A stretch of 64,000 bases of DNA, taken from IMG/VR virus record IMGVR_UViG_2687453623_000004; one strand, given 5' to 3'. Positions within the stretch are counted from its first letter, which is position 1, and every line of letters begins with the position of its first letter. Both the position numbers and the translations under genes were made by a program. Positions 25,322 through 47,518 of this stretch are shown piece by piece. The stretch is from a virus (taxonomy: Duplodnaviria > Heunggongvirae > Uroviricota > Caudoviricetes). The notes beneath the pieces are model-generated. The model did not search any database, had not been told where the DNA came from, and was given only the letters and a program-made list of their open reading frames with translations.

Positions 25322-27604
25322 ATGTCCGAGCTTAATGAAAAGTTAGCCACAGCCTGGGAAGGTTTTACCAAAGGTGACTGGCAGAATGAAGTAAACGTCC
25401 GTGACTTCATTCAGAAAAACTACACTCCGTACGAGGGTGACGAGTCCTTCCTGGCTGGCGCTACTGAAGCGACCACCACCCTGTGGGACAAAGTAATGGA
25501 AGGCGTTAAACTGGAAAACCGCACTCACGCGCCAGTTGACTTTGACACCGCTGTTGCTTCCACCATCACCTCTCACGACGCTGGTTACATCAACAAGCAG
25601 CTTGAGAAAATCGTTGGTCTGCAGACTGAAGCTCCGCTGAAACGTGCTCTTATCCCGTTCGGTGGTATCAAAATGATCGAAGGTTCCTGCAAAGCGTACA
25701 ACCGCGAACTGGACCCGATGATCAAAAAAATCTTCACTGAATACCGTAAAACTCACAACCAGGGCGTGTTCGACGTTTACACTCCGGACATCCTGCGTTG
25801 CCGTAAATCCGGTGTTCTGACCGGTCTGCCAGATGCTTATGGCCGTGGTCGTATCATCGGTGACTACCGTCGCGTTGCACTGTACGGTATCGACTACCTG
25901 ATGAAAGACAAACTTGCACAGTTCACCTCTCTGCAGGCTGATCTGGAAAACGGCGTAAACCTGGAACAGACTATCCGTCTGCGCGAAGAAATCGCTGAAC
26001 AGCACCGCGCTCTGGGTCAGATGAAAGAAATGGCTGCGAAATACGGCTACGACATCTCTGGTCCGGCTACTAACGCTCAGGAAGCTATCCAGTGGACTTA
26101 CTTCGGCTACCTGGCTGCTGTTAAGTCTCAGAACGGTGCTGCAATGTCCTTCGGTCGTACCTCCACCTTCCTGGATGTGTACATCGAACGTGACCTGAAA
26201 GCTGGCAAGATCACCGAACAAGAAGCGCAGGAAATGGTTGACCACCTGGTCATGAAACTGCGTATGGTTCGCTTCCTGCGTACTCCGGAATACGATGAAC
26301 TGTTCTCTGGCGACCCGATCTGGGCAACCGAATCTATCGGTGGTATGGGCCTCGACGGTCGTACCCTGGTTACCAAAAACAGCTTCCGTTTCCTGAACAC
26401 CCTGTACACCATGGGTCCGTCTCCGGAACCGAACATGACCATTCTGTGGTCTGAAAAACTGCCGCTGAACTTCAAGAAATTCGCCGCTAAAGTGTCCATC
26501 GACACCTCTTCTCTGCAGTATGAGAACGATGACCTGATGCGTCCGGACTTCAACAACGATGACTACGCTATTGCTTGCTGCGTAAGCCCGATGATCGTTG
26601 GTAAACAAATGCAGTTCTTCGGTGCGCGTGCAAACCTGGCGAAAACCATGCTGTACGCAATCAACGGTGGCGTTGACGAAAAACTGAAAATGCAGGTTGG
26701 TCCGAAATCTGAGCCGATCAAAGGCGATGTCCTGAACTATGATGAAGTGATGGAGCGCATGGATCACTTCATGGACTGGCTGGCTAAACAGTACATCACT
26801 GCACTGAACATCATCCACTACATGCACGACAAGTACAGCTACGAAGCCTCTCTGATGGCGCTGCACGACCGTGACGTTATCCGCACCATGGCGTGTGGTA
26901 TCGCTGGTCTGTCCGTTGCTGCTGACTCCCTGTCTGCAATCAAATATGCGAAAGTTAAACCGATTCGTGATGAAGACGGTCTGGCTATCGACTTCGAAAT
27001 CGAAGGCGAATACCCGCAGTTTGGTAACAACGATCCGCGTGTAGATGACCTGGCTGTTGACCTGGTAGAACGTTTCATGAAGAAAATTCAGAAACTGCAC
27101 ACCTACCGTGACGCTATCCCGACTCAGTCTGTTCTGACCATCACTTCTAACGTTGTGTATGGTAAGAAAACTGGTAACACCCCAGACGGTCGTCGTGCTG
27201 GCGCGCCGTTCGGACCGGGTGCTAACCCGATGCACGGTCGTGACCAGAAAGGTGCTGTAGCGTCTCTGACTTCCGTTGCTAAACTGCCGTTTGCTTACGC
27301 TAAAGATGGTATCTCCTACACCTTCTCTATCGTTCCGAACGCACTGGGTAAAGACGACGAAGTTCGTAAGACCAACCTGGCTGGTCTGATGGATGGTTAC
27401 TTCCACCACGAAGCATCCATCGAAGGTGGTCAGCACCTGAACGTTAACGTGATGAACCGTGAAATGCTGCTCGACGCGATGGAAAACCCGGAAAAATATC
27501 CGCAGCTGACCATCCGTGTATCTGGCTACGCAGTACGTTTCAACTCGCTGACTAAAGAACAGCAGCAGGACGTTATTACTCGTACCTTCACTCAATCTAT
27601 GTAA
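25322..27604 (+). CDS. pflB: pyruvate formate-lyase 1
   Basis: 760-aa [64 protein letters not shown]… to the glycyl-radical C-terminus; RBS aaggtagg upstream. Confidence 0.97.
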
Positions 27605-27645: not shown

Positions 27646-27671
27646 AGGCTCCACGAAAGTGGGGCCTTTTT
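27646..27671 (+). terminator. intrinsic terminator after pflB
   Basis: ggctccac gaaa gtggggcc followed by tttttt, ~40 nt after the pflB stop. Confidence 0.6.
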
Positions 27672-27795
27672 TAGCACGAGAGCCTTTTTTGTCAGCTATC
27701 TATACTTTAAGGTGACTGCCAAAACAGACTCGACGTAGCCTTCGAGCTGCGCACCAACACGGCCTCAGATGGGCCACATCTGGAGAAACACCGCA

Positions 27796-27822
27796 ATGTC
27801 AGTTATTGGTGACATTTTTTGA
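27796..27822 (+). pseudogene. pflA: 5' remnant of pflA (PFL-activating enzyme) truncated at the prophage junction
   Basis: RBS ggag then ATG TCA GTT ATT GGT (MSVIG, the recalled PflA N-terminus), followed by GAC ATT TTT TGA instead of the continuation RIHSFES…; divergence begins at 27811. Confidence 0.55.
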
Positions 27823-27883
27823 TATCTAATCACATGAAATAAAAGGATTTATTTCTGGTCACGTCCACACATTGACCACATCG

Positions 27884-27910
27884 ACAAAAAAAGCCCCTCG
27901 ACTGAGGGGC
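27884..27910 (-). terminator. intrinsic terminator after ogr (minus strand)
   Basis: Minus strand: gcccctc agtc gaggggc followed by ttttttt, ~15 nt downstream of the ogr stop. Confidence 0.6.
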
Positions 27911-27923
27911 TTTCCATTTGTAA

Positions 27924-28142
27924 TTACATCCACATAATTTGCTGCCCTGACGGCAACGGGTGCGGCCTTACGGCGTGGACTTCTCCCGGCTTCACGATGT
28001 ATCGCTGTACCGACTCATAGGTGATGAACGTGGCGCTGCAATTCACGTTCTGACACTGGTGATAACGCTCTTTTGTCGTGTCAGTGATATAGCGGCTTGT
28101 ACGCGCATGTGCGGCATGCTGGCATAAAGGACAATGAAACAT
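27924..28142 (-). CDS. ogr: late gene transcriptional activator Ogr (zinc finger)
   Basis: 72 aa from ATG 28142: MFHCPLCQHAAHARTSRYITDTTKERYHQCQNVNCSATFITYESVQRYIVKPGEVHAVRPHPLPSGQQIMWM; Cys4 motif. Confidence 0.9.
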   Translation of the reverse strand: MFHCPLCQHAAHARTSRYITDTTKERYHQCQNVNCSATFITYESVQRYIVKPGEVHAVRPHPLPSGQQIMWM

Positions 28143-28223
28143 CGCGAGCACCTCTTCCGGTTTTGTTGACGGTGCCATTTTAGTTAATTTATCCTTACAA
28201 AACAAACAGATAAATAAAACACA

Positions 28224-29387
28224 TCACTCATCACCTTCTGTTTCGTACTCCACATCAGAAAGCCTGACCTCAAGCTCTAAGGACGTCGTGAAGCCGCTAT
28301 TATTCAGAAAATGTGTCACCTTAGTGATTGTCCAGTCCTGCTCGTCTATGACGCGCTTAAAGCCTGACACTTTGACCGGCGTTTCCGTGTAAATATCTGC
28401 CCGACCGGTAGCCAGACTGATGGAGAACTCCGCAACGCCCCGTTGCAGTTTATCCCACTTCGCCTGAGCGGCACGCATGGCCTGCGCTTTCGTGGCATAT
28501 ACCGTGGTCAGGGCAAAAACGTTGTCAGCCTCACCGGCCATGTATTCACCTTCACGCGCTTCCGGTACTTTAGGCGCTTTCTTCTGCCTGACCGGTTTCG
28601 CTTTCGGGTGCTCCAGTGCGCGCAGGTGTTTCTCTTTCTTTTTGCGTTTCAGTTTTACCTTCTGCTTTTGCGGTTTCGGGTCTTTGGTGTGTAACCACTT
28701 TGCCGTTACGCCTGTATAGGCTCCGCGGTCAGCAATCGCAAAATGATGACGGTCGCCGTCGCTGCGGGTGATGGTAATCTGCGGGATTTTTTTACCGCTG
28801 GCCGTCACCCCCTGCCCCGCTTTGAGAAACAGCAGTTTTCCCATTTTTACCGACACCTCACCGCCGTTGCGTTCAGCAAGACGGGTCAGGAATTTCGCAT
28901 CAGACTCCTGCGACTGGTCGATGTGCGGGATTTTAATTCCTGCCAGTGACGGCGCGACACTGGCTTCCAGCCTGTTACGGGAGGCTATCGCCTCAACAAT
29001 CGCACCGAGCGTGGTGTCATGCCATGAGCCTTCACGGCGGGAATTGAGCGTCCCGCGAAAATCTGCACTCCGGGCGCGGATGGTGACCACATCCGGTGCG
29101 CCCCGGTGTTCAACCTCATCAACGGTGAATTTCCCTTTGCATACCAGGGCAAAACCTTTCCAGCCGATATACACCGTCAGGACAGCGCCACGAACCGGCA
29201 GCTCGACCTGCCCGTCGGCATCGTTCAGTTCAATATCAAGCTGGTCAGCCTCAAAGCCCCGGTTATCCGTCAGGGTCATGCTCATCAGACGGTCGCTGAT
29301 ATTGCCGGTAATATCCCTGCTGTCGAGCACCAGCATGTAATCCGGCGTCAGCGTACTGCCTGCATCAAATGTCAGTGCATCCAGCAT
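28224..29387 (-). CDS. D: tail protein D (late control gene D)
   Basis: 387-aa ORF MLDALTFDAGSTLTPDYMLVLDSRDITGNISDRLMSMTLTDNRGFEADQLDIELND… matching P2 gpD. Confidence 0.9.
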   Translation of the reverse strand: MLDALTFDAGSTLTPDYMLVLDSRDITGNISDRLMSMTLTDNRGFEADQLDIELNDADGQVELPVRGAVLTVYIGWKGFALVCKGKFTVDEVEHRGAPDVVTIRARSADFRGTLNSRREGSWHDTTLGAIVEAIASRNRLEASVAPSLAGIKIPHIDQSQESDAKFLTRLAERNGGEVSVKMGKLLFLKAGQGVTASGKKIPQITITRSDGDRHHFAIADRGAYTGVTAKWLHTKDPKPQKQKVKLKRKKKEKHLRALEHPKAKPVRQKKAPKVPEAREGEYMAGEADNVFALTTVYATKAQAMRAAQAKWDKLQRGVAEFSISLATGRADIYTETPVKVSGFKRVIDEQDWTITKVTHFLNNSGFTTSLELEVRLSDVEYETEGDE

Positions 29388-29866
29388 TATCCCGCCCCCG
29401 TCATACCCGTGAATTTAGTCGCCATACTGCCAGCCTTACCGATGAGCGATTCCGCCTGTTTACCGATATCGCCATAAAGCGCGGCCAGTGATTCATCAAC
29501 GCGGGTGAGCGACAGCGTAAAATCAATTTTCCGGGGTGTGCCGTCTGCAAAGAAAATACTCCCTGTTTCACTCACCTTGCTGATGACATACATGCCGTAA
29601 ATCATGCCGGTGCCATCCAGCAACGGCCACGCCCGCCCCTCCTCTGCCATCAGCCTGAGCGTGGTCATCGTCAGCTTGCCGCCGGTCAGTTCGGGATAAA
29701 GCACACCGGCAAGCGTCATGTTTTCCTCACCCACACCGAGAAACTGGTAGGCATCCCGTTTACCGATACGGGAATTTGACGGCCAGCGATAATCTGATTC
29801 ACGCTGCATGGTCTGGTGTGGCAGCGTCTGGCGCATAAAAACAAACATACCTAACGCGAGCATCAT
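29387..29866 (-). CDS. U: tail protein U
   Basis: 159-aa ORF MMLALGMFVFMRQTLPHQTMQRESDYRWPSNSRIGKRDAYQF… matching P2 gpU. Confidence 0.9.
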   Translation of the reverse strand: MMLALGMFVFMRQTLPHQTMQRESDYRWPSNSRIGKRDAYQFLGVGEENMTLAGVLYPELTGGKLTMTTLRLMAEEGRAWPLLDGTGMIYGMYVISKVSETGSIFFADGTPRKIDFTLSLTRVDESLAALYGDIGKQAESLIGKAGSMATKFTGMTGAG

Positions 29867-29880
29867 TTTTCGTCACCTCC

Positions 29881-32327
29881 TTAACCGTCATGCATCATGC
29901 TGGCACGGGCGCGCGCTCGTTTATCCCGCTCGTATTTTTCGAGCGCATCCTGTAACTGGCGGTCGAGCTGTGTCCCCGGCGCAGTACCACCCGTCAGGCT
30001 GATGTGATATTCGTTTTTACTCTGGTCTACATAAGAGCGGCCAGCCGGTGCCGTGACCGGCTGATAAGCCTGATAACCTGCATAAGAGCTGGTCGCCGGA
30101 ATATAACCACCGCTGCCATACGTGGCGGCTTGAGTTCTGGCGGCGGTCTGGTCAAGTGTGTCTGACTCTTTGTTGATAACACCGAGTTTTTCCAGTACCC
30201 AGTCAATACCACTGCGCAGTTTGTTGAACGCATTAAGCGGCAGCATCAGCGCGTCAGCCAGTGCCTGCCCGAACATGACGCCCGTGTCACGGCAACGGTT
30301 CAGGGTGTCCTGGGTGGCTTTGACCGGGGCAATCAGGTTTTTAAACCACTGCCACGCGGCCTGTAACTTTTCACCCAGCCAGTCAAACACCGGTTTAAGT
30401 GGCGTGAACAGTTCCCCCACCGGCGTAAATGCCGCTTTCAGCCCTTCCACCACACCGCCAAAGAATGCGCTGACAGGCTCCCAGTATTTACGGATAAGCA
30501 ACGCCCCGGCGACAATGGCGGCCACCACGGCCACAACCGGCCAGCTAATCGCCCCGATGGCGGTCATAACAGCACTGCCAACCGTCGTGAAGATTGCCCC
30601 CATTGCGCCTGCTGCCGCGATGATGGCATTGATGCCGGTGATAACCGGCCAGGCTACGAGGCCAATGGCACCGATGACACCAATCAGTGCCAGTGCACCA
30701 CCGACAATGATGCCGATGGTTGACGCCAGTGATTTGTTTTTCTGGATCCAGCCGTCGAGTTTTAACACATACTTTGTGGCCGTCTGCGTGAGATTACGCA
30801 GTGCGCCTTCCTGCTGGTCAAACAGGTCAGTCCCCACCGCCTCATAAGCGGACTGAAACTCCTTAAAGTCACCGCCGAGGTTATCCTGCATGATTTTAAC
30901 CAGCTCTTCCGTTTTACCGTCCGAGGCTTTCAGCGTGGCGGTCAGCTTATCCAGTTTTCCGCTTGCTGCCGCTGCCAGTAAAACGTTCGCTGATTTCAGG
31001 GCTTCCTCACCAAAAATGGTTTTAAGGTATTCCCCCTTCTGAGACGTTCCCAGCTTGTGTTTATCAAAGCTGGCCTGAATCTCTTTCAGAATGGTGAACA
31101 ACGGACGCATATTTCCCTTTTTGTCCGAGGTTTTAACGCCAAGCTCTTTGAGTGCATCCCATGCTTTTCCAGTCGGTGCCTGTAATCGGGTGACAACGGC
31201 ACTACTACCCGTACCCGCCATTGACCCCCTGATGTTATTGTCATGCAGCACACCTGTCATGGCCGCTGCCTGCTCAAGACTTACGCCTGCCGTCCTCGCA
31301 ACCGGCCCGAGGTAAGTCAGTGCATCACTGAGTCCCTGAAAATCAGCGCCGACTTATTCATCGTTGCAGACAACACGTCGCCCACATGGCTGACATCATC
31401 ATTTGACAGTTGAAAGGATGCCTTAGTCCCCAGCAACAGTTGCGCGTTTTCTTCCATCGACCGCTGATTCGCCAGTGCCATATTCAGCGTGACCGGCGTT
31501 GCCGCCTGAATAGCCGCAGCATCTCCACCCGCTTTCGCAATGATAATCTGCGCACCGGCCGCATCATCCGCCGAGGCGGCTGTGTTGTCACCGAGCTGGC
31601 GCGCCTGTTTGCGGAGTGCGGTCATTTCGGCGGAGTCTTTTGCCACTCCGAGCACGGCCTGCAATTCTGAGTTTTTCTGCGCAAACTCATAACCGGGCAT
31701 CAGCAGCTTAACTCCGGCCATCGTTCCCGCAGCAGCAATCCCCGCACCGGCAGCGCCCACTGAGGCCATATTTCCGGCCAGTTCCTTTCCTGCCTGATAA
31801 CGCTGTTTGACTGCGTTAAGTTTTGCCTGTTGTACACTGACACGCGCCAGCGCGTCACGCTGACGGTTAAGCTGTGCGGTGGTTTCACTGATACGGTTTT
31901 TCAGTCCCTGCTCATCATGTGCAAGATTGCGGGTATTAATTCCCACAGCGGCCAGTTCTCGCTGCTGGCGTTTAACGGAATCTGTCAGGCGGTTATATTT
32001 CGCCTGTAAGTCCTCCGCCGCACGCTTTGCGGATTCCAGCACTTTCGCCTGAGCACGGGTCGGACGTTCGGTGTTTTTAAACTGTGTGGCAAGGGCTTCG
32101 GCTTCCTGTCGAGCCTTTTCAAATGCATGACCAGTCACGGCGAGCTGTGCACTGGTCTTGCGGAATCCCTCAATACGGGATGCGTGACCGTTCAGCTCGC
32201 GCAGTGATTTTTGTGTTTCCCGGATATCCCCCGACAGCGACTTGCTCGCTGTACGGATGGATTTAAACGGGCGGGATGCCTGGTCAACAGCCCTGAGCAA
32301 TACCTGTAATTTTACATTGTTACTCAT
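29881..32327 (-). pseudogene. T: tail tape measure gene T, interrupted by a frameshift (two ORFs: 31317..32327 and 29881..31353)
   Basis: N-terminal 336-aa ORF ends with TGA at 31317-31319 while the C-terminal frame is open from 31353 down; the two frames overlap by ~35 nt; combined length ~810 aa fits P2 gpT. Confidence 0.6.
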
Positions 32328-32747
32328 TCGTGTTTCCGCTTCGCCGGAGCGCCTTTTCGCGCCATGTGATGAGTTCGGTCAGGCTCATGGGATACAGTTC
32401 TGATGGCGGCCAGTGAAATATCACTGCCACATCCGCCATCAGGTCATCGACCGAGAGATTTTTCGGAAACGTTACTGCACCGAGTTCGGCGACAAAAAAC
32501 CGACCACCTTACCGGCCAGCGCCACAAGGTCAGGCAGCTCCAGCGCGGCGACCTCCTGCTCAGTCAGCATCGGTGCCGTCATGCGCGGCAGCACTTTAAT
32601 CAGTGCATCGACTTCGGAGTTCGCGACCGCAGCCAGACTGACACCGCGCAGCGTCCCGGCATTGGGTTTCATCAGCGTGACCTGTTCGATAACCTGCTCA
32701 CCACGCTTGACCGGATTGTCCAGGGTAATCACATTTTCTTTGTTCAT
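32320..32747 (-). other. E': E+E' -1 programmed frameshift product (slippery T-TTT-TTG at 32493-32499, minus strand)
   Basis: In the E frame the codons GGT TTT TTG contain the heptamer TTTTTTG; the -1 frame then stays open for ~55 codons (VAELGAVTFPKNLSVDDLMADVAVIFHWPPSELYPMSLTELITWREKALRRSGNTNE) to TAA at 32320-32322, overlapping the T start. Confidence 0.65.
32472..32747 (-). CDS. E: tail assembly chaperone E
   Basis: 91-aa ORF MNKENVITLDNPVKRGEQVIEQVTLMKPNAGTLRGVSLAAVANSEVDALIKVLPRMTAPMLTEQEVAALELPDLVALAGKVVGFLSPNSVQ. Confidence 0.85.
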   Translation of the reverse strand: MNKENVITLDNPVKRGEQVIEQVTLMKPNAGTLRGVSLAAVANSEVDALIKVLPRMTAPMLTEQEVAALELPDLVALAGKVVGFLSPNSVQ

Positions 32748-32803
32748 GGTTTTCTCACTTCTGAATCAGGGTTAACCGGTCAGCCTGGCTGACCGGATGA
32801 AAA

Positions 32804-33322
32804 TCACAGGCCGATATTGCGGCGGTGTTGCTCCAGCCGGTCGACGCCGTTCACCTTCTCAATCATGTTGATGGTGTCGATTTCGACCAGCTCCTTACCG
32901 TCCATCGTCAGCCGGAAATAGGTGCAGACCACGGAGATTTTCGACTCGGTGTCTTCTCCCTGTTTACCCTCTCCGGTGTCGATTTCTTTCTGACGTCCAC
33001 GCATGACCACTTCGACGGCCACCGTTTCGCCGGTATCGTCACGCTGGTAAGAGCCTGCAAAACGAATCGGCACGGCATCCACGCCGGTTGCGGCGTAAAG
33101 CTCCCAGATAACCGAATCCGGGAAGCCCCCGAGCGACCACTCCATTGACAGCGCATCGTCATCAAGGCCGAGGTCTACCGGTGCGCTGCCGTTCATCCCC
33201 GCACCGCGATAGTTTTCGAGCTTACGGGTCAGTTTTGGCAGCGTGACGGACTTTGCAACGCCCTGATAGCTGTAGCCGTTCAGAAAGACGTTCATTAACT
33301 TGAGTTTGCGCGGCATTGCCAT
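32804..33322 (-). CDS. FII: tail tube protein FII
   Basis: 172-aa ORF MAMPRKLKLMNVFLNGYSYQGVAKSVTLPKLTRKLENYRGAGMNGSAPVDLGLDDDALSMEW… matching P2 FII. Confidence 0.9.
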   Translation of the reverse strand: MAMPRKLKLMNVFLNGYSYQGVAKSVTLPKLTRKLENYRGAGMNGSAPVDLGLDDDALSMEWSLGGFPDSVIWELYAATGVDAVPIRFAGSYQRDDTGETVAVEVVMRGRQKEIDTGEGKQGEDTESKISVVCTYFRLTMDGKELVEIDTINMIEKVNGVDRLEQHRRNIGL

Positions 33323-33334
33323 CGGTCAGGCTCC

Positions 33335-34525
33335 TTAATTGCTGTTAACCGAGGTGACCAGATTTGCCAGGTATTTATCGGTAATACGCTGGCGCAGGGT
33401 CAGGTTTTCAAGAGGAGGCACCGGTGTATAGTCGTAGTCGATATACAGTTTTCCGGCCTTGAGGGTTTCCGCATCGTTGGATTCTTCGCTGAACCAGCAG
33501 GTCGCATCCACGATATAGCCGTTTGTTTTCAGCTCACGGAATTTGGCATTGATGCCGTCAACGATGTCGCGAATCAGCGTTGCGGTGATGGGCTTGTCCA
33601 CCGCCCACATGTGCGCCTCAGCCATCGTGTCGGCAAGCACCTGCGCGGTGCGGGTGTAGTTTTCAAAGAGGAACAGCGGGTCATCAGAGCAGGTACGGTT
33701 ACCCCAGAAGCGGAAACCGTCACGGCGAATCAGCGTTGTGACGCCTGACTCGTTAAGCAGGTCAGCATCGGTACCGGACTCCTGCAAATCCCAGAATACA
33801 GAGGCGCTGATGCCGGTAACACCGCTTACCCCGACGTTGGACAGCGTTTTATGCCAGCCCTGCTCCTGGTCGATTTTAGCACGCAGGCCCAGTGCACGAG
33901 CGGTGGCATACGCGGTGGCGGTGGTACTGGCGACCGTATCCCATGCGAGGAAATCCGGCCAGATGACCATCAGCTCACGCTGGCTGAAATTCTGGCGGTA
34001 GGCTTTCACCTCGGAAATGGTCTTACAGCCCCATGCGCTGATATACCCGAAAGCGCGCAGCTTCTGACAGACTGATGCCAGTGCGACGGCAACCTCTTTG
34101 GTGTCCAGTCCCGGCACACCAAGAATACGCGGTTTAACACCGGTTACCGACTCCGCCGCCAGCAGGGCTTTCAGTCCGGTGTACTGACCGTTTTCGTCGG
34201 TGGTGCCGATGATATTGGAAATGGTCTGCGCAAGTTTCGTTTCTTCGTCGTCGCCGGTGCCGTCTTCCACACGCACGACAACGGTGACCGGTTTTGACTG
34301 GTCGGCGATGGCCTGCAACGATGCCGCCAGCGTGCCTTTTTTACCGGCCTTTGCAATTGCGCTCTGCACATTGGTTATCAGCACCGGTTTATTGAGGGGG
34401 AAGGTTTCCGCATCCGCATCGCTGGCCGTGCAGACCATGCCGACAATGGCCGTGGATACGGTGGAAATGACGCGGGTGCCGTCGTTAATCTCCAGCACCT
34501 GCACGCCGTGATGATAGTCACTCAT
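33335..34525 (-). CDS. FI: tail sheath protein FI
   Basis: 396-aa ORF MSDYHHGVQVLEINDGTRVISTVSTAIVGMVCTASDADAETFPLNKPVLITN… matching P2 FI. Confidence 0.9.
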   Translation of the reverse strand: MSDYHHGVQVLEINDGTRVISTVSTAIVGMVCTASDADAETFPLNKPVLITNVQSAIAKAGKKGTLAASLQAIADQSKPVTVVVRVEDGTGDDEETKLAQTISNIIGTTDENGQYTGLKALLAAESVTGVKPRILGVPGLDTKEVAVALASVCQKLRAFGYISAWGCKTISEVKAYRQNFSQRELMVIWPDFLAWDTVASTTATAYATARALGLRAKIDQEQGWHKTLSNVGVSGVTGISASVFWDLQESGTDADLLNESGVTTLIRRDGFRFWGNRTCSDDPLFLFENYTRTAQVLADTMAEAHMWAVDKPITATLIRDIVDGINAKFRELKTNGYIVDATCWFSEESNDAETLKAGKLYIDYDYTPVPPLENLTLRQRITDKYLANLVTSVNSN

Positions 34526-34620
34526 CCGTTTAACTCCGTGGTTAATGGGTGCAACTATTTTCTGTTGTGCAGAGCATGAGACGCTATTTGACCTGGCTGG
34601 CCAGTGGATGAAACAACAAA
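34526..34620 (-). promoter_or_regulatory. probable Ogr-dependent late promoter region upstream of FI
   Basis: Placement inferred from P2 organisation; dyad-like TGCAC…GTGCA elements present; exact Ogr site not resolved. Confidence 0.3.
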
Positions 34621-34621
34621 T

Positions 34622-34650
34622 AAAGAAAAGGCGGGCAATCAGCCCGCCTG
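34622..34650 (-). terminator. intrinsic terminator downstream of the Z/fun-position cargo gene (minus strand)
   Basis: Minus strand: ggcaggcgggc tgatt gcccgcc followed by ttttcttta. Confidence 0.55.
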
Positions 34651-34836
34651 CCTTGATTTGTTCTCACTCAGCTTCCAACTGACAAGTTACATAATCAAAA
34701 CGCTATTAAATCTGACAGTCTGCTTTGAGCGATGAACGGACATAACGACTCACTAATGACTAATTTGCTAACCGCTTCCGACCCAAAACTGTCGGTTGCA
34801 TGATAATTAATCCAGCAAGCAAATTCATAGTCATTG

Positions 34837-35313
34837 CTATATGTTACTGGGATTATTAAAAGGGATAATACTGGCCAATCCGTCATCAACATCAAGACCA
34901 TAGGTAACCGCTATTTCTGCCAGAGAGTTACCACACTTTTGTCGCAGTTTAAAAAGGGCTCGCTCAAGTATGGATATTTGAACAGGATGATCAAGTTGGA
35001 TAAAGTGAGGGGAGCCAACGCTGTCACAGAATTCTTGGCATGCTTTTCTCATTTTCCTTAATTGTTTTGCTAAATGTGAATCGCTCGGCAAACCTTGTAG
35101 GACTTTAGTCAATTCAGATCTAATGTTGATAACACTCGAAGTGCAATGACTAGCACCCTCCATGTCGACAGGATTGAAAAGAACGCGCTTGTCCTCAAGA
35201 AAAATGACGATCTTCTTCGCTTCGTCAGTTTCTATTATTGGAGCATTCCACTGAATCCCGAATATGGGACAGCTAAGGCCAGTAATATTTTTATAGATTT
35301 GTTCAAATTTCAA
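34837..35313 (-). CDS. hypothetical protein, accessory cargo at the P2 Z/fun position (no family recognised)
   Basis: 158-aa ORF MKFEQIYKNITGLSCPIFGIQWNAPIIETDEAKKIVIFLEDKRVLFNPVDMEGASHCTSS… in a visibly AT-rich block unlike the surrounding phage genes; own terminator downstream. Confidence 0.55.
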   Translation of the reverse strand: MKFEQIYKNITGLSCPIFGIQWNAPIIETDEAKKIVIFLEDKRVLFNPVDMEGASHCTSSVINIRSELTKVLQGLPSDSHLAKQLRKMRKACQEFCDSVGSPHFIQLDHPVQISILERALFKLRQKCGNSLAEIAVTYGLDVDDGLASIIPFNNPSNI

Positions 35314-35571
35314 AAGTCACTCCTTGGATGGACTCTGAGCATATAAAACGCCATACTGATAAACGGACTCGGTTCAAGTAATCTGTTAGATAGCATAACT
35401 CGGAACCACTGTAAAAATAGTTGTTAACATACCTAAAAGTGACAGCGGAGGCAAGATTCCCTCAGCCGGAGCGATAAATTAGGCATAAGTTATACACACA
35501 TTAGTAATAATCACTAAAGATATTCTAATTTTTTATGCCGACTTAATATGATTTCCCGTCAATCAGGTTAG

Positions 35572-35597
35572 CGTCCGCTCCTGGCACAAAGCGGACG
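35572..35597. repeat. hairpin-containing ~26-bp element, copy 1 (cgtccgctcctggcac aaa gcggacg)
   Basis: Perfect 7-bp stem CGTCCGC/GCGGACG; the first 16 nt recur exactly at 36495-36510. Confidence 0.6.
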
Positions 35598-35753
35598 AGG
35601 TAACTGAGCTAAAGGTCCGCTGTGAGCGAAAAGTGGACATTAGAGTTACAAAAGTAAGTTTAAATCATCCAAAATATTACAATATCCTTATCTATCTGAT
35701 ATTGTTATGATAAAAAGTTCCTGAATATAATCGATAGTAGGTGGTTATTTTCC

Positions 35754-36131
35754 ATGAAATCAATTTTAGAGGTTTTTACTCAAGGAAATACTAAAGAAAA
35801 ACTGGCTGTTATCGCTGATCTCACAACCATTGCGGGAATATCGATAGCAACTATTATTGCTGGTTTGTTAACCCTAGTTGCAAAAACAGATAAACTAGAT
35901 GTTGGAAATCTGTTTGGAGTTGTCATAATATCTCTGCTCGGATTGGCTGGTGTTTGCTGTTTTATGGCCCTATTTATTTGGGTTATAACCCAAATGTCTA
36001 AACCATGGGGAACACCTCGGGGGATTCAGTCCTTAGTTAAGTGTGCTATTTCCCTTATCTTTATCTGTATTTTTTTGCTGGCTGTCTTTACATTTTATGA
36101 GGTTATTTCTTCGATGAGAATACTCTATTGA
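35754..36131 (+). CDS. small multi-pass membrane protein, accessory cargo (no family recognised)
   Basis: 125-aa ORF with RBS ggtgg upstream; three or four hydrophobic helices (…IAGISIATIIAGLLTLVA…, …GVVIISLLGLAGVCCFMALFIWVI…, …AISLIFICIFLLAVFTFY…). Confidence 0.55.
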   Translation: MKSILEVFTQGNTKEKLAVIADLTTIAGISIATIIAGLLTLVAKTDKLDVGNLFGVVIISLLGLAGVCCFMALFIWVITQMSKPWGTPRGIQSLVKCAISLIFICIFLLAVFTFYEVISSMRILY

Positions 36132-36494
36132 ATATAAAATCAGCTCTCATAACTTAAAAGAGGCCTTCTATAAGGTCTCTTTTAATTGAATTACCATCCT
36201 ATTAATCCAGAGAATCTTTATCATCACAAAATAACAAACATTGGAGATAATTAATAAACTAATCATCCTCAAGATCATCTTTATCTTTACAAAGCGAGTG
36301 TCAGTATTCATCCTAACATCAAGTGCAGAATGGAGTATTTTATGTATCTTCATGCCGCTTGCACGCTTTATCTCGTTTTTTGTAGGTGGTGTACTATCTC
36401 TAAATGACCATTTATATGGTGTAAGACTACTGACTTTAGAGGGCTATGATCTACATAGTTCTTCTAACCATTATTCTCCAAATAAACTTTACAA

Positions 36495-36520
36495 CGTCCG
36501 CTCCTGGCACGGAACGGACA
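36495..36520. repeat. hairpin-containing ~26-bp element, copy 2 (cgtccgctcctggcac ggaa cggac)
   Basis: Direct repeat of copy 1; together they bracket the membrane-protein gene (~0.9 kb). Confidence 0.6.
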
Positions 36521-36580
36521 GCCTGATTAGGTTTTACTCTGTGCCATAGATGAGTAATCTCATACCAGAGCTAATACGAT

Positions 36581-37105
36581 TTATTGCGGCATTTCTGGCC
36601 ATTCTATATCCGGAGCATTTTCCGGCTGAACGCGATTCAGTAGCACACGGTATTTTTTCCAGTGTGTCAGGCTTAACTTTTCTTCCTCGGTAGCCATATC
36701 TAAATCGACAGCATCCTGCAGAGTGCCAATAATTTCACCGGCATATGCAATCTGCTCTTTCTTCTGAGACTCCGCCGCTCTGACAAGTGCATCATGCTCT
36801 GCATTCTCATCATTCACCCACGCATTTCCGTTCCATTTCTGATAATCCCCATCCGGGGAAATGGCTGTCACGTCTGGAGGTAATGCACCAAGTTCAGAAA
36901 TATAAATGGCTGCTCCCGTTTTCGTTTCGTAGACAGTCTTTCCGCGATGATCTTCCATCAACTCCCATTTCATTTCATCTGCATTGAAAACGGCTGCATA
37001 ACCAGCAGGAATATCAGGTGGTGCAATATCTGTACTGTTTGCAGGCAGACCTGTATGCGGCGGAATATATGCATCACTTTCGCCAATAAACTCATTGGTT
37101 GCGTA
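36581..37105 (-). pseudogene. G: tail fibre assembly gene G, 3' fragment (175 codons, no start codon), separated from its 5' end by an IS element
   Basis: Frame open from TAA at 37106-37108 down to the stop at 36581; encodes …[57 protein letters not shown]…DIEWPEMPQ, the conserved Tfa body. Confidence 0.8.
37093..37099. repeat. 7-bp target-site duplication (CATTGGT), copy flanking the lower-coordinate IS end
   Basis: cattggt immediately precedes the IS terminus tgcgtatt… at 37100; identical heptamer follows the other terminus at 39681-39687. Confidence 0.7.
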
Positions 37106-37184
37106 TTACCGTGAAGGAGATCGGTGAGTAACATCGATGGAGATCGGTTCGTGTCACTTTCACAGAACCGTTTTTAAATTACCT

Positions 37185-37934
37185 TCACTGATCTCCTTCG
37201 GTCAACGGAGATTGTATTTTCCGCATTGATTCTCCTTTAAGTTCGATCTTGATACTGCCATGAACCAGTCGATCTAGGATGGCATCCGCATGTGTGGAGT
37301 CTCCGATCATTTTGTACCAGTTTTCCACCGGCAACTGGCTCACTACGATGATTGAGCCTCGTTGGTACATCAGATCCACTATTTCCAGCAGGTCGCTACG
37401 CTGTTCTGATGAGAGAGGTTCCAGCCCCCAGTCATCCAGAAGCAGCAGATCGCTATTATTCAGCCTGGTCAAAAGTTTGCTGTATCTTCCATCAGCATGC
37501 CCCTGATAGCACTGTTCCATCAGCGCTTTAAGGCGATAATAGTAGACCTTGTATCCCTGTCGGCAGGCATTATGACCAAGTGCACATGCCAGGAACGTTT
37601 TACCGCTGCCGGTGGCCCCGGTCAGTAAAATATTTTGTTTCAGGGTTAACCAGTTTCCCTGACTGAGTGAACGGATGAGGGCCCTGTCCAGCCCTCTATT
37701 GTTACGATAATCCAGCTTTGATAACTCAGCATTAAGTCTGAACCGTGCATGTTTGATCAGACGCTCTGCCTTCCTGTTTTCACGGCAGGTTAGTTCTTCT
37801 GCTGTCAGTAATGACAGGCGTTCTTCGAAGCCCAGCTCCTGGTATGTGCCCGGTTGAGCAAGTTGCTTTTTAAGCGCATCACGGAAGCCGGTGAGTTTAA
37901 GTGCGGTCAGTTGTTCGTAAAGATGATTCATCAT
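37185..37934 (-). CDS. istB: IS21-family transposition helper ATPase IstB
   Basis: 249-aa ORF with Walker A motif (LLTGATGSGKTFLACALG) and Walker B-like LLLLDDWG. Confidence 0.9.
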   Translation of the reverse strand: MMNHLYEQLTALKLTGFRDALKKQLAQPGTYQELGFEERLSLLTAEELTCRENRKAERLIKHARFRLNAELSKLDYRNNRGLDRALIRSLSQGNWLTLKQNILLTGATGSGKTFLACALGHNACRQGYKVYYYRLKALMEQCYQGHADGRYSKLLTRLNNSDLLLLDDWGLEPLSSEQRSDLLEIVDLMYQRGSIIVVSQLPVENWYKMIGDSTHADAILDRLVHGSIKIELKGESMRKIQSPLTEGDQ

Positions 37935-37945
37935 TGGATCCCGTA

Positions 37946-39487
37946 TCAGTGGTAATACTCACTGCCGCGTACGTTTTCGTGTTCCATCGTGGATAACAGA
38001 TCTGGTTTTGGATCCTGAACAGGTTGTTTATCCAGACCTTTTTCCAGGATCGATTTAATACCTGACAGACGCCATACCTTTGTTTTCAGAGCTCTTGCAC
38101 ATGCTGCATTAAGTCTGGCTTTACTGTATTTTTTATGAAGGTTCAGGAGTCCAAGGCAGAAGCGATAGCTTTGTTCCGGATGTGGACGAGAGTTCAGTAT
38201 ATGAAGCACATAACTATGAGTTTCACTGCCTATGTGCCCCGCCCATTCCAGAAGACGCTCTGGCGTCCAGGTGGCATGCTGTCGATGAGCTTCAGGCATG
38301 TGCTCGTTGCGGGTACTGTAGCCATAAGTACGCTTGCGCGGGTGCACAGCAACCTCCTGCCCCTGATTGAAGAGTCTTACCAGTTCTCCGGAGATCCATG
38401 CTTCCAGTTGCTGGCCTAACAGCGAACATGGAACCGAGTAGTAATGTTTGTCGATTTCCACGTGGTAATCGGCATGAACTCTGACTTTCTTCACCAGGGT
38501 GTAACTGTAACTGGCTTCAGGAAGAGGCTTCAGTGCGGGTTTATCAAGCTGGATGAAGAGTTCTGCACGTGAATAACCCAACTTCTGCATTATTTTGTTA
38601 TTCAGTCTTTCCAGCAACTCCCGAATGCGCTGATTAAGCGATGCAAGGCTGTAGAAGATCTCATGCCTGATTCGGGCCATGATCCAGCGTTCAACAACCT
38701 GAACGCCAACTTCAGCTTTGGCTTTATCTTTCGGTTTACGTGGCCGCGCAGGCAAAACTGCGACATTATAATGCTCAAGCATCTGCTGGTAGGTAGGGTT
38801 AACGTCAGGATCATACTTACATGCCCTGGATGTGGCGCTTTTCAGATTGTCCGGAACAACAAGTTCAGGAACGCCACCCAACCACTGGAAGCAGCGAACA
38901 TGACTCATCACCCAGTCTTCAAGCTGCTGAGACCAGGTGGCCTCTGCCCATGTGTAACTTGATGCCCCGAGAACAGCTACGATGACCTGAGCAGTTCTTA
39001 TTTCTCCGGTCTCAGGGTCGGTAACGCCAACGGTAGGTCCACAGTAATCAACGAAAAGTTTTTCGCCAGCTTTATGTACCTGACGCATTGATGGTGAAGT
39101 GGTTTTGAGCCATTCACGGTACATCCGGCAGTAATGGTTATAGCTGTAAAAACCGCCTGGATTACGCTCACAGTATTCTTCCCAGAGTAGCTGCAGCGTC
39201 ACGCATTTATTACGCAGTTCCCGGTGTACTGTAGCCCAGTCAGGCAGAGAGTGCTTCTTCATCTTAACCTGGGTCTGAAGGAACGCATGTTTTAGTTTTG
39301 TATCATCCCATCCTGTAGGTAAGGGCCACTGCTTTATGCCAAGTTGAGCCGCCCGATTAGCATATCTGGATACAACGGAAGGGGAGATTGCAAGACTACG
39401 ACCAATTTGTCGATGGCTGAGTCCAACACCGTATTTAAGCCTAAGAATTTCTTTAAGTTTTCTCATAGAAATTGGAACTGTTGGCAT
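37946..39487 (-). CDS. istA: IS21-family transposase IstA
   Basis: 513-aa ORF with N-terminal HTH (…LSHRQIGRSLAISPSVVSRY…) and DDE-type catalytic core; followed 12 nt later by istB. Confidence 0.9.
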   Translation of the reverse strand: MPTVPISMRKLKEILRLKYGVGLSHRQIGRSLAISPSVVSRYANRAAQLGIKQWPLPTGWDDTKLKHAFLQTQVKMKKHSLPDWATVHRELRNKCVTLQLLWEEYCERNPGGFYSYNHYCRMYREWLKTTSPSMRQVHKAGEKLFVDYCGPTVGVTDPETGEIRTAQVIVAVLGASSYTWAEATWSQQLEDWVMSHVRCFQWLGGVPELVVPDNLKSATSRACKYDPDVNPTYQQMLEHYNVAVLPARPRKPKDKAKAEVGVQVVERWIMARIRHEIFYSLASLNQRIRELLERLNNKIMQKLGYSRAELFIQLDKPALKPLPEASYSYTLVKKVRVHADYHVEIDKHYYSVPCSLLGQQLEAWISGELVRLFNQGQEVAVHPRKRTYGYSTRNEHMPEAHRQHATWTPERLLEWAGHIGSETHSYVLHILNSRPHPEQSYRFCLGLLNLHKKYSKARLNAACARALKTKVWRLSGIKSILEKGLDKQPVQDPKPDLLSTMEHENVRGSEYYH

Positions 39488-39680
39488 AGGTATCCTTTAC
39501 CGGAATGGCAAAAGATACAGATCAACACACCTGTGAAGTTCCAATAACATTGATGGAGATCACTGAATAACAAAATGAGTCAAAAGTGATCTCCATCGAT
39601 GTTATTCAGCGATCTGTTCAAATGTTATTACCCGATCTCGATGGAAGTTATTGAGTGATCTCCTTTCATGAAAATACGCA

Positions 39681-39747
39681 CATTGGTTCCATCAAGTAAA
39701 TTGAAAACGCGGATAGTTTGTGCTTCTGCACTCATTCTGAAAGCCAT
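39681..39747 (-). pseudogene. G: tail fibre assembly gene G, 5' fragment (first 22 codons)
   Basis: ATG at 39747-39745 overlapping the H stop; encodes [22 protein letters not shown], then runs into the IS terminus; joining it to the 3' fragment across the IS restores …[15 protein letters not shown]…. Confidence 0.75.
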
Positions 39748-42371: not shown

Positions 42372-42381
42372 TGTTTCTCAC

Positions 42382-42912
42382 TTATCCGGGATAAACAGTA
42401 ATAACATCACCATCACAGACCACACCGCCTGTATACAGATAGCCGGGAATGTCCTGGATAATGTTCAGACCGATAAGGTGGCGACTTGCGGGTTTGGCAT
42501 CGGCAATCAGCCGTTCCATTTCCAGATACATCTCCTCCGTGATGCCGCTTTCCAGTACGCCGATATCAAGGCGGAAGGTTCCTGGCGGGTCGTTTGTCTC
42601 CCACCATTCCTTTACGTTAATGAGATAGCCGAGCGGCTCCACCACACGCCGGATTGCGCCGACAGTGCCTTTATGACAATGAATGAAATAGGCATCGCGG
42701 ATAACGGCGCGTTTTGTCGCTTCCGGCCACTTTTCATCCCAGCGGTCAACCGAAAATGACCACGCCAGCCACGGCAGTAGATTTGCCGGGCAGGTGTCCG
42801 GGTTCCACAGCTCACGAATACTGACCGGCGTTTTTTCAATTTCCGCACAGGCTTTTGCGGCGGCGACTTCAAGCGGTGATGAGCCAGTCGGCAGCAGTCG
42901 CGAATCACTCAT
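42382..42912 (-). CDS. I: baseplate/tail protein I
   Basis: 176-aa ORF matching P2 gpI. Confidence 0.85.
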   Translation of the reverse strand: MSDSRLLPTGSSPLEVAAAKACAEIEKTPVSIRELWNPDTCPANLLPWLAWSFSVDRWDEKWPEATKRAVIRDAYFIHCHKGTVGAIRRVVEPLGYLINVKEWWETNDPPGTFRLDIGVLESGITEEMYLEMERLIADAKPASRHLIGLNIIQDIPGYLYTGGVVCDGDVITVYPG

Positions 42913-43813: not shown

Positions 43814-43817
43814 GGTT

Positions 43818-44165
43818 TCAACTCACAGGGATGGTTAACGAAAGTGGCTGGCCGGTGTCGTTGTGCTGGCCGGTTAACGTGACCGTCATTCGCCCGTCAA
43901 AACTGCGCGCCGTAGTGACGGATGACAGGGTGACGCGGGGTTCCCATTTCAGCACGGCCATGTAACAGGCGACCTTAATCTGCAACTCAAGCGCCGGGGT
44001 CTGCGGCTGGTCAATCATTGACGCCAGCAACGAGCCGTAATCACGACGCATCACCCGTGAGCCGACCGGTGTGCGCAGGATATCGCCGATACTCTGGCTG
44101 ATATGCTCAAGGTCAGTGACAGTCAGGCCATCACTGCGATTCATTCCGAGATAACGCGCTGTCAT
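43818..44165 (-). CDS. W: baseplate wedge protein W
   Basis: 115-aa ORF matching P2 gpW. Confidence 0.9.
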   Translation of the reverse strand: MTARYLGMNRSDGLTVTDLEHISQSIGDILRTPVGSRVMRRDYGSLLASMIDQPQTPALELQIKVACYMAVLKWEPRVTLSSVTTARSFDGRMTVTLTGQHNDTGQPLSLTIPVS

Positions 44166-47515: not shown

Positions 47516-47518
47516 GCG

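What the first reader, a model, noticed from the sequence alone, without database searches (positions are those of the whole stretch)
27790..27825. P2-like prophage junction lies inside the first codons of pflA
After the pflB terminator, an RBS and ATG TCA GTT ATT GGT (MSVIG, the PflA N-terminus as I recall it) are followed from 27811 by phage DNA and a stop three codons later; the next gene is ogr. The prophage therefore appears inserted at the 5' end of pflA, separating the PFL-activating enzyme from pflB by at least 36 kb. Whether pflA is regenerated at the int-side junction with a phage-derived 5' region cannot be seen in this window.
Basis: partly seen in the sequence, partly recalled or inferred. 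Interest (0 to 1): 0.6.

Follow-up and report, generated by a model that had tools for sequence, protein, structure and literature searches.

The report
P2-like prophage rebuilds pflA's start
A P2-type prophage sits inside the first five codons of the E. coli gene pflA and supplies a new 20-codon start, so the gene stays whole; this attachment site was already known and is common.

Summary
At 27796-27810 the window carries ATG TCA GTT ATT GGT, preceded by the intact pflB-pflA intergenic region. From 27811 it continues into a P2-like (Peduovirus) prophage, with ogr as the first gene.

The junction is attL. The 13-bp core GTCAGTTATTGGT (27798-27810) recurs at attR, 91 nt past the window end, in a genome that differs from the window at 1 of 40,020 compared bases. 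Free phage genomes carry the predicted attP, and K-12 carries the predicted attB.

At attR the phage supplies an ATG and 20 in-frame codons (MSNLTNCNTTENTATAGATK). These fuse to Ser2 of PflA and give a 265-aa protein whose residues 21-265 are identical to crystallised PflA.

About 7.4% of complete E. coli genomes (404 of 5426) carry this junction, and it holds their only pflA. The same int-leader-pflA arrangement occurs in E. albertii, Scandinavium, Pseudescherichia and Rahnella, and the same leader on Salmonella PflA proteins. One metagenomic contig keeps the leader after the prophage has decayed.

Substitutions in the leader concentrate at third codon positions, which argues that it is translated. 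Transcription from phage signals is inferred, not shown.

The site matches the published attB of coliphages PhiD145 and PhiD160 and of prophage ECA29. It is already known and of modest interest.

The parts
25322..27604 (+). pflB (formate C-acetyltransferase), intact
   Evidence: A 760-aa ORF; annotated as pflB in the near-identical genome.
27647..27672 (+). pflB terminator hairpin GGCTCCAC-GAAA-GTGGGGCC followed by TTTTTT
   Evidence: Read directly from the sequence and identical in K-12. The simple scanner did not call it, probably because its stem extension uses up the T run.
27673..27795 (+). Native pflB-pflA intergenic region (pflA promoter region and Shine-Dalgarno GGAG at 27782-27785), now cut off from the pflA body
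   Evidence: Aligns to K-12 with one difference (A1). That a pflA promoter lies here is prior knowledge and was not tested.
27796..27822 (+). pflA stub: five native codons (MSVIG), three phage codons (DIF) and TGA
27798..27810 (+). attL core GTCAGTTATTGGT, identical in attB, attP and attR. The wider imperfect identity between attB and attP is 18 of 22 bases.
   Evidence: Alignments A1 and A2.
27811..64000 (.). P2-like (Peduovirus) prophage, from the ogr end to the int stop codon. It continues about 90 nt past the window to attR.
   Evidence: RefSeq annotation of the near-identical genome. The late region is 96% identical over 82% of its length to Peduovirus P24A7b. The int region is 99.7% identical to phage pro483.
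27862..27885 (+). Putative P' arm: direct repeats CGTCCACA and TGACCACA, candidate Int arm-type sites
   Evidence: Read from the sequence and conserved in free-phage attP (A2). Their role as binding sites is inferred by analogy with P2.
27890..27912 (.). G+C-rich hairpin. It is the ogr terminator on the minus strand (followed by U7) and a likely barrier to host read-through on the plus strand.
   Evidence: Folding gives -20.6 kcal/mol on the plus strand and -21.4 on the minus strand, with z-scores of -5.3 and -4.6.
27924..28142 (-). ogr (late-gene activator)
62139..62495 (-). cox
   Evidence: Annotation of L001 38159-38515.
62600..62911 (+). Immunity repressor C (helix-turn-helix), on the same strand as int and the rebuilt pflA
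63005..64000 (+). Tyrosine integrase gene (331 aa). Its stop codon is the last three bases of the window.
   Evidence: Relatives that are 76-80% identical sit beside pflA in other genera.
63963..63999 (+). Promoter-like site TTAACC-16 nt-CATAAT (63963-63990). It overlaps the putative P-arm repeats TGTCCATA (63981-63988) and CGTCCATA (63992-63999).
   Evidence: Promoter scan (L001 39983-40010) and sequence. This is only a consensus match, and the region yielded fewer promoter-like sites than shuffled sequence.

Best explanation
Bases 27798-27810 are the attL core of a PhiD145-type P2-like prophage. Its tyrosine integrase recombines attP with an attB that spans codons 1-5 of pflA. Integration leaves the native pflA promoter, ribosome-binding site and ATG attached to an 8-codon stub at the ogr end of the prophage. 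A strong hairpin there probably stops host transcription from entering the prophage. At the int end, 91-103 nt past the window, the phage supplies an ATG 31 nt after the int stop codon, followed by 19 further codons in the pflA frame. The chromosome therefore encodes a 265-aa PflA: MSNLTNCNTTENTATAGATK followed by Ser2-Phe246. All of this is shown by sequence. The following steps are inferred. The fused gene is transcribed from phage signals, either by read-through of the lysogenic C-int transcript or from a promoter inside the 3' end of int. It is translated from the phage ATG. The short, polar, probably disordered extension leaves PflA active, so lysogens keep pyruvate formate-lyase activity.
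For: - **Junctions and reciprocal sites.** K-12 attB, window attL, LS4 attR and the attP of two free phages fit a single crossover within GTCAGTTATTGGT.
- **Rebuilt gene.** The attR sequence and its 265-aa translation are. Residues 21-265 are 100% identical to the crystallised PFL-activating enzyme 3C8F.
- **Prevalence.** attL is present in 402 and attR in 404 of 5426 complete E. coli genomes. The median genome has one pflA match, and the three lysogens listed in the sampled output each have one. The exact 265-aa protein occurs on at least 1000 contigs.
- **Other genera.** Integrases 76-100% identical to this one sit before a 60-nt in-frame leader and an intact pflA in E. albertii, three Scandinavium species, Pseudescherichia vulneris and Rahnella. 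Further prophage contigs show the same. Salmonella proteins carry the same kind of leader.
- **Reading frame.** In all 12 distinct leaders the pflA frame has no stop codon, while the other two frames have 2-5 stops each.
- **Coding signature.** Among close relatives, 9 of 12 substitutions in the leader fall at third codon positions (P = 0.004) and 8 of 12 are synonymous (P = 0.003). The 34 nt upstream show no change within any clade.
- **Intact ORFs.** Every pflA downstream of a leader is full length with no internal stop. LS4 differs from K-12 by 12 synonymous and 0 non-synonymous changes.
- **Fossil.** A metagenomic contig has pflB, a 431-nt spacer holding a decayed 3' end of int, then the leader fused to an intact pflA, with no prophage.
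- **Transcription and translation context.** No plus-strand terminator is predicted between C, int and the rebuilt pflA. The spacer between int and the leader is unstructured at -0.7 kcal/mol.
- **Structure.** An AlphaFold model of the Salmonella 265-aa fusion has pLDDT below 50 for residues 1-16, and its first strand starts at residue 24.
Against: - No expression data were available, so the promoter, the start codon used and the enzyme activity are all inferred.
- The sequence upstream of the phage ATG has only a weak Shine-Dalgarno match (GAAG), compared with GGAG for the native gene.
- The promoter-like site is a 9-of-12 consensus match, and the scanned region gave fewer such sites than shuffled sequence. 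The lysogenic promoter Pc was not detected by the scan at all.
- The constant length and the conserved first 8 codons of the leader could reflect attP architecture (IHF and Int binding sites and their spacing) and not protein function.
- The substitution test rests on only 12 changes, which I counted by hand.
- A review describes the ECA29 prophage at the equivalent Pectobacterium site as disrupting pflA (PMC13492144).
- The near-absence of non-synonymous change in pflA largely reflects evolution before integration.
Confidence: 0.8

Rival explanations
1. Integration inactivates pflA. The fused reading frame is an annotation artefact that is not expressed, so lysogens lack the PFL-activating enzyme. 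This is how ECA29 in Pectobacterium has been described.
For: A review lists ECA29 as disrupting pflA. The native promoter, ribosome-binding site and ATG are removed from the gene. The ribosome-binding site before the phage ATG is weak.
Against: The frame is kept open in 12 distinct leaders from five or more genera. Leader substitutions show third-position and synonymous excess. All downstream pflA ORFs are intact. The junction is carried by 7.4% of complete E. coli genomes, and pflA is typically single-copy (median one match per genome; one in each of the three lysogens sampled). A decayed prophage still keeps the leader fused to an intact pflA.
Confidence: 0.1
2. pflA is expressed, but the 60-nt leader is essentially attP architecture (IHF and Int binding sites plus spacing). 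Its open frame is incidental, and translation starts elsewhere or only weakly. In the Rahnella type it could start at the retained native-position ATG, which follows a GGGGG run.
For: The leader is exactly 60 nt in every lineage and its first 8 codons are nearly invariant, as expected for protein-binding DNA. Rahnella-type phages keep an ATG at the native position, preceded by a purine-rich run.
Against: In the E. coli, Salmonella and Scandinavium types the native ATG is replaced by AAG. The only in-frame canonical starts are then the phage ATG and a TTG three codons upstream of it. The third-position bias of substitutions matches the pflA frame.
Confidence: 0.08
3. The match to the pflA start is a chance similarity or an assembly artefact, and the prophage lies in an intergenic region.
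Against: The full upstream intergenic region is homologous to K-12. More than 400 independent complete genomes carry both junctions. Free phages carry the reciprocal attP.
Confidence: 0.01

Closest known systems
P2-like coliphages PhiD145 and PhiD160, and prophage ECA29 of Pectobacterium atrosepticum (Nilsson et al. 2011, PMC3448106; Evans et al. 2010 as cited in PMC13492144)
   Same: Table 1 of PMC3448106 places the PhiD145/PhiD160 site at MG1655 coordinate 950293. With the +777 offset between genome versions (from my memory), this is nucleotide 11 of pflA, the middle of the core found here. The table gives ECA29 the same site identity, and ECA29 is reported to lie in pflA.
   Different: The PhiD145 integrase and att sequences were not in any searchable collection, so identity of the integrases is not shown. 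I could not read the primary papers. I therefore do not know whether they describe the rebuilt gene with its 20-residue extension. The accessible review calls the ECA29 event a disruption.
dusA-specific integrases of prophages and genomic islands (Farrugia et al. 2015, PMC4482086)
   Same: Integration occurs inside the 5' end of a conserved housekeeping gene, and the element replaces the native 5' end with its own sequence so the reading frame is restored.
   Different: The integrase family and target gene are different. In dusA the replaced segment encodes a structural beta-strand that the island must mimic. Here only Met1 is replaced, and 20 unrelated, probably disordered residues are added.
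Phage HK022 integration upstream of torS (Carey et al. 2019, PMC6814406)
   Same: A prophage separates a host anaerobic-metabolism gene from its native promoter, and the gene then lies just downstream of int. In HK022 a phage promoter in the 73 bp after int drives torS and changes its regulation.
   Different: The HK022 crossover is upstream of the coding sequence, and the promoter was mapped experimentally. Here the crossover is inside the coding sequence, the N-terminus changes, and the promoter is only predicted.
Phage integration into the 3' ends of genes with a phage-borne duplicate (phage 21 and e14 in icd; many tRNA sites)
   Same: The phage carries a substitute for the part of the target gene that it displaces, so the gene stays functional. 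This is stated from general knowledge.
   Different: Those phages replace the 3' end with a homologous copy. Here the 5' end, including the start codon and all expression signals, is replaced by non-homologous sequence.

Membership tests
P2-like phage (Peduoviridae, genus Peduovirus) | P2-type gene order: ogr, D, U, T, E, FII, FI ... H, I, J, W, V ... lysis genes ... L, M, N, O / P, Q ... A ... cox / C, int | tested here: met
   RefSeq annotation of the near-identical genome shows this order. The late region is 96% identical over 82% of its length to Peduovirus P24A7b and 96% over 76% to L-413C.
P2-like phage (Peduoviridae, genus Peduovirus) | Able to produce infectious virions | tested here: not met
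   In this strain the tape-measure gene is frameshifted (2447 nt against 2448 nt, with the frame broken after codon 336). ISEc12 interrupts the tail-fibre assembly gene. This copy is therefore probably defective. Close relatives exist as isolated phages.
Tyrosine-recombinase site-specific integration | A common core at attL and attR, with attP in the free phage and attB in the empty site equal to the reciprocal recombinants | tested here: met
   The 13-bp core GTCAGTTATTGGT is present in all four sites.
PhiD145-type integration module | attB at MG1655 950293 (older numbering), inside the 5' end of pflA | tested here: met
   Table 1 of PMC3448106, combined with the pflA start at 951080 in NC_000913.3. 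The +777 offset between genome versions is from memory. The ECA29-pflA link gives independent support.
PhiD145-type integration module | Integrase sequence identical or nearly identical to PhiD145 Int | not testable with these tools
   The PhiD145 sequences (AJ298559, AM158280, AM159077) are partial records that are not in the collections.
Target-restoring integration at a gene's 5' end (dusA type) | Crossover inside the 5' coding region, with the element supplying an in-frame replacement start | tested here: met
   repeated in other genera.
Target-restoring integration at a gene's 5' end (dusA type) | The rebuilt gene is expressed and functional | not testable with these tools
   Only indirect support is available: intact ORFs, the codon-position pattern in the leader, the fossil locus, and prevalence.
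Phage-promoter takeover of a host gene (HK022/torS type) | A phage-encoded promoter or phage read-through drives the host gene | tested here: inconclusive
   No terminator is predicted between C, int and pflA, and there is one weak promoter-like site in the 3' end of int. Pc was not detected by the scan.
PflA (pyruvate formate-lyase activating enzyme, radical SAM) | Full-length match to PflA, including the CX3CX2C cluster motif and the N-terminal GRIHSFES...DGPGIR motif | tested here: met
   Residues 21-265 are 100% identical to PDB 3C8F/3CB8, and both motifs are visible in the translation.

The most novel reading that the evidence does not exclude
The phage-supplied 5' end may be more than a neutral repair. 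By placing pflA under the lysogenic C-int transcription unit and adding a 20-residue tail, these prophages could change the amount, timing or stability of the PFL-activating enzyme. That would alter mixed-acid fermentation in lysogens, including pandemic ST131-type strains, much as HK022 rewires torS. The fossil locus shows that the phage-derived N-terminus and expression signals can become a permanent part of a bacterial housekeeping gene after the prophage is lost.
Probability: 0.2. Interest if true: 0.55.

Novelty: already known. Interest (0 to 1): 0.3.

Why it matters
pflA is needed to switch on pyruvate formate-lyase, the central enzyme of anaerobic mixed-acid fermentation in enteric bacteria. 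About one in fourteen complete E. coli genomes, including isolates labelled O25:H4 and APEC O18, carry their only pflA as a phage-host chimaera that depends on phage DNA for its start codon and probably its promoter.

If expression differs from the native gene, lysogeny would tune anaerobic metabolism in the gut. Even if it does not, this is a clean natural example of a phage that targets the 5' end of a housekeeping gene and repairs it with unrelated sequence. It also corrects the reading of such insertions as simple gene disruptions.

The site itself is already in the P2 literature and the fused protein is routinely annotated, so the finding is confirmatory.

Tried and rejected
- **Literature search.** Searches combining pflA with P2-like, prophage, integrase or attachment site found no paper on the E. 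coli fusion.
- **Unavailable primary papers.** Evans 2010, Karlsson 2006, and Christie and Calendar 2016 are not held. Mandali 2010 I did not try to fetch and know only from memory.
- **P2 diversity paper.** The 2026 paper on P2-like diversity does not mention integration sites.
- **UTI89 prophage.** I suspected that PhiECO5 of UTI89 sat at pflA. It lies between serS and dmsA.
- **Providencia PflA.** I took the 262-aa Providencia PflA for another phage fusion. It sits directly after pflB with no phage DNA, so it is a native or over-called N-terminus.
- **258-aa Salmonella variant.** I first read this as a shorter, independent leader. It is the same 20-codon leader with a later start call, so I dropped the argument from a different leader length.
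- **IMG/VR prophage contigs.** Most end at the int stop codon and gave no junction.
- **Terminator scanner.** It missed both obvious hairpins, at pflB and at ogr, so I folded the ogr one directly.
- **Pc promoter.** Neither the scan nor inspection by eye identified it.
- **Related integrase at another site.** An integrase 70% identical to this one (L087) lies next to pyrE and not pflA. Site specificity therefore changes below roughly 75% identity.

Full report
**1. The observation**

The window reads ...GGAGAAACACCGCA ATG TCA GTT ATT GGT GAC ATT TTT TGA..., with the ATG at 27796. The 15-nt pflA start occurs once in the window, even when two mismatches are allowed.

It is not an isolated short match. 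The pflB 3' end, its terminator and the whole pflB-pflA intergenic region align to E. coli K-12 MG1655 with a single difference. Identity ends after GGT at 27810 (alignment A1).

Downstream lie ogr (27924-28142, minus strand), gene D, and the other late genes of a P2-type phage. Further on are the replication gene A, cox, the repressor C, and an integrase gene whose stop codon is the last triplet of the window.

The late region is 96% identical over 82% of its length to Peduovirus P24A7b.

**2. The far junction**

Megablast of the junction against 5426 complete E. coli genomes found it in 402 of them. Strain LS4 (NZ_CP024717.1, locus L001) differs from the window at 1 of 40,020 compared bases, so it serves as a continuation of the window.

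In LS4 the int stop codon is followed by 31 nt and then this sequence: ATG AGT AAT TTA ACT AAT TGT AAT ACA ACA GAA AAT ACC GCT ACG GCG GGG GCT ACC AAG | TCA GTT ATT GGT CGC ATT CAC TCC....

RefSeq annotates this as pflA, 265 aa instead of 246. Its product begins MSNLTNCNTTENTATAGATK-SVIGRIHSFESCGT.... Residues 21-265 are 100% identical to the crystallised E. coli PFL-activating enzyme, PDB 3C8F/3CB8.

The sequence GTCAGTTATTGGT is shared by attL (window 27798-27810) and attR. attR is at L001 40111-40123, which would be window positions 64091-64103. Core to core the prophage is 36,293 bp, including a 2.6-kb ISEc12.

**3. A normal site-specific integration**

Free phage genomes (Peduovirus P24A7b and Yersinia phage vB_YpM_46) carry int, the same 31-nt spacer and leader, then ...ACCAAGTCAGTTATTGGTGACATTTTTTGATATC..., and then ogr. 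This is exactly the attP predicted from attL and attR. K-12 carries the predicted attB.

Around the 13-bp core, attB and attP share 18 of 22 positions. Both arms carry paired direct repeats of the form YGWCCAYA:
- TGTCCATA and CGTCCATA, inside the last 20 nt of int.
- CGTCCACA and TGACCACA, at 27862-27885.

I interpret these as Int arm-type binding sites by analogy with P2. That is an inference and was not tested.

**4. How common it is, and whether pflA survives**

The attR junction is present in 404 of 5426 complete E. coli genomes. The median genome has one match to the pflA part of the query, and the three lysogens listed in the sampled output each have one. In lysogens the fused gene therefore appears to be the only pflA.

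The exact 265-aa protein is recorded on at least 1000 contigs. Hosts of the lysogens include humans, cattle, chickens, a pigeon and a yak.

Integrases 76-100% identical to this one lie in front of pflA in E. albertii, three Scandinavium species, Pseudescherichia vulneris and Rahnella ecdela. In each case the geometry is the same: ATG 31 nt after the int stop codon, and a 60-nt leader. Several IMG/VR prophage contigs show the same arrangement. Salmonella proteins with such leaders exist, for example MSNLNDCIKKENTAAAAEKK-PIIGR.

Every pflA behind a leader is full length with no internal stop. LS4 differs from K-12 by 12 synonymous and no non-synonymous changes.

**5. Is the leader translated?**

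In all 12 distinct leaders the pflA frame has no stop codon, while the other two frames have 2-5 stops each.

I counted substitutions by hand among close relatives: within the Rahnella type, within the Scandinavium/Pseudescherichia type, and between E. coli and E. albertii. This gave 12 changes, all in codons 10-19.
- Nine of the 12 are at third codon positions (binomial P = 0.004 against an expectation of 1/3).
- Eight of the 12 are synonymous (P = 0.003 against the expected fraction of about 0.25).
- The 34 nt upstream of the ATG show no change within any clade.

This is a small sample, but it is the pattern expected of a translated sequence read in the pflA frame.

The first eight codons (MSNLTxCN) are nearly invariant. 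They may also serve as protein-binding DNA; a CAANNNNTTR-like IHF motif lies on the opposite strand, which I read by eye and did not test.

In the E. coli, Salmonella and Scandinavium types the native ATG has become AAG, so the phage ATG is the only in-frame AUG (a TTG lies three codons upstream of it). In the Rahnella type an ATG is retained at the native position behind a GGGGG run, so two start codons are possible there.

An AlphaFold model of the Salmonella 265-aa protein gives pLDDT below 50 for residues 1-16. Its first beta-strand begins at residue 24, which is native residue 5. The extension therefore looks like a disordered tag.

**6. A fossil**

One 265-aa variant (P0017, leader MTNLTNCNTTEIVAESEEKV-PVLG) sits on a 16.6-kb metagenomic contig directly after focA-pflB, with no prophage. 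The 431-nt spacer between pflB and pflA contains about 220 nt of a decayed, frameshifted 3' end of a Rahnella-type int gene. After it come the arm repeats, the spacer and the leader.

Here the prophage has been deleted, but its 5' replacement for pflA remains and pflA is intact. This is the best indirect evidence that the phage-derived 5' region is sufficient for pflA expression.

**7. How it probably works**

*Shown.* The crossover removes the promoter region, the Shine-Dalgarno sequence and the ATG from pflA. These remain at attL, attached to an 8-codon stub. The phage supplies a new start and 20 codons at attR.

*Inferred.*
- In P2-type phages, C and int form the lysogenic transcription unit that reads towards att. 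This is general knowledge of P2; I could not retrieve a source.
- C, int and the rebuilt pflA are on the same strand here. No plus-strand terminator is predicted before the one that follows pflA.
- A weak promoter-like site, TTAACC-16 nt-CATAAT, lies in the last 40 nt of int. It resembles the position of the experimentally mapped HK022 promoter for torS.
- The spacer in front of the phage ATG is unstructured at -0.7 kcal/mol. This can compensate for its weak Shine-Dalgarno match.
- At attL, the ogr terminator hairpin (27890-27912; -20.6 kcal/mol on the plus strand and -21.4 on the minus strand) probably blocks transcription from the orphaned pflA promoter into the prophage.
- Separation of pflA from pflB by 36 kb should matter little if pflA has its own constitutive promoter, as reported for K-12. 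That rests on my memory of Sauter and Sawers 1990.

**8. What is already known**

Table 1 of Nilsson et al. 2011 (PMC3448106) lists the P2-like coliphages PhiD145 and PhiD160 as integrating at MG1655 position 950293. It gives the Pectobacterium prophage ECA29 the site identity 'PhiD145'. A 2026 review cites Evans et al. 2010 for ECA29 lying in, and disrupting, pflA.

pflA starts at 951080 in NC_000913.3. With the +777 offset between the two genome versions (from memory), 950293 becomes 951070. That is nucleotide 11 of pflA, the centre of the core found here. The site is therefore a published attB.

I could not read the primary papers. I found no accessible text that describes the rebuilt 265-aa gene in E. 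coli.

The general mechanism also has a described precedent. The dusA-specific integrases insert into the 5' end of a housekeeping gene and replace that end with element-borne sequence (PMC4482086).

**9. Verdict**

The observation and the interpretation are both correct, and the open question is resolved: pflA is regenerated with a phage-encoded N-terminal extension. The element is a member of a known phage group at its known attachment site, and the fused protein is already annotated in RefSeq.

What I add:
- The cross-genus conservation of the in-frame leader.
- The codon-position signature of the leader.
- The fossil locus.
- The caution that calling such an insertion a 'disruption' is probably wrong.

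Interest is modest (0.3). It would rise only if the phage-controlled, extended PflA were shown to change anaerobic physiology.

Noticed in passing
window 54370-57692 (minus strand), between the portal gene Q and the replication gene A: A low-G+C (37-40%) cargo block sits in the classical P2 tin/old hotspot. One 243-aa DUF2971 protein matches the PADLOC candidate defence system PDC-S31 (E = 2e-47). The adjacent 158-aa and 380-aa proteins match PDC-M18B (E = 3e-19) and PDC-M18A (E = 9e-41). A 139-aa ORF at 54370-54789 has no match.
   Followed up: partly
window 34837-36131, between the tail sheath gene and the tail-fibre genes: A second low-G+C cargo spot lies at the P2 Z/fun position. It holds a DUF6650 protein (158 aa, minus strand) and a 125-aa ORF with no family match. 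Neither matches PADLOC.
   Followed up: partly
window about 37100-39681: An IS21-family element, ISEc12 (istB 37185-37931 and istA 37946-39487), interrupts the tail-fibre assembly gene. Fragments of that gene remain at 36581-37099 and 39682-39747.
   Followed up: no
window 29881-32327 (minus strand): The tape-measure gene is split into two ORFs (29881-31260 and 31317-32327). It is 2447 nt long against 2448 nt in P24A7b, and the frame breaks after codon 336. RefSeq flags it as frameshifted. Together with the IS insertion, this suggests the prophage copy is defective. The single base that differs between the window and strain LS4 (window 31020) lies in this gene.
   Followed up: partly
L096 3570-4060 (Logan SRR23300977 contig): This is a prophage fossil: the pflB-pflA spacer holds about 220 nt of a decayed int 3' end and the phage leader, fused to an intact 265-aa pflA, with no prophage present. 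The protein cluster has 123 member sequences.
   Followed up: yes
L087 3490-3700 (IMG/VR contig): A related integrase (70% identical) with the same arm-type repeats is followed by a terminator-like hairpin and then the start of pyrE (MKAYQRQFIEFAL...). This suggests a sister lineage that targets the region just upstream of a different housekeeping gene.
   Followed up: no
L099 (E. coli UTI89, 911-948 kb): A different P2-like prophage (PhiECO5 of Nilsson et al.) lies between serS and dmsA, with its int gene reading towards dmsA and a hok/gef gene at the ogr end. This is another case of a P2-type int pointing at an anaerobic-respiration operon.
   Followed up: no
L001 40850-42100 compared with L002 (K-12): In strain LS4, pflA is followed directly by ycaD. 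K-12 has ycaK and ycaN next after pflA; from memory, ycaM and then ycaD follow them. This is a strain difference just outside the window.
   Followed up: no
L092-L095 (Providencia): Providencia PflA is annotated as 262 aa with an N-terminal extension, MSAEIITTTDITKTEAPATL-GRIHS. It sits directly after pflB with no phage DNA. This is either a native extension or an over-called start codon. If it is real, it shows that PflA tolerates N-terminal extensions.
   Followed up: partly
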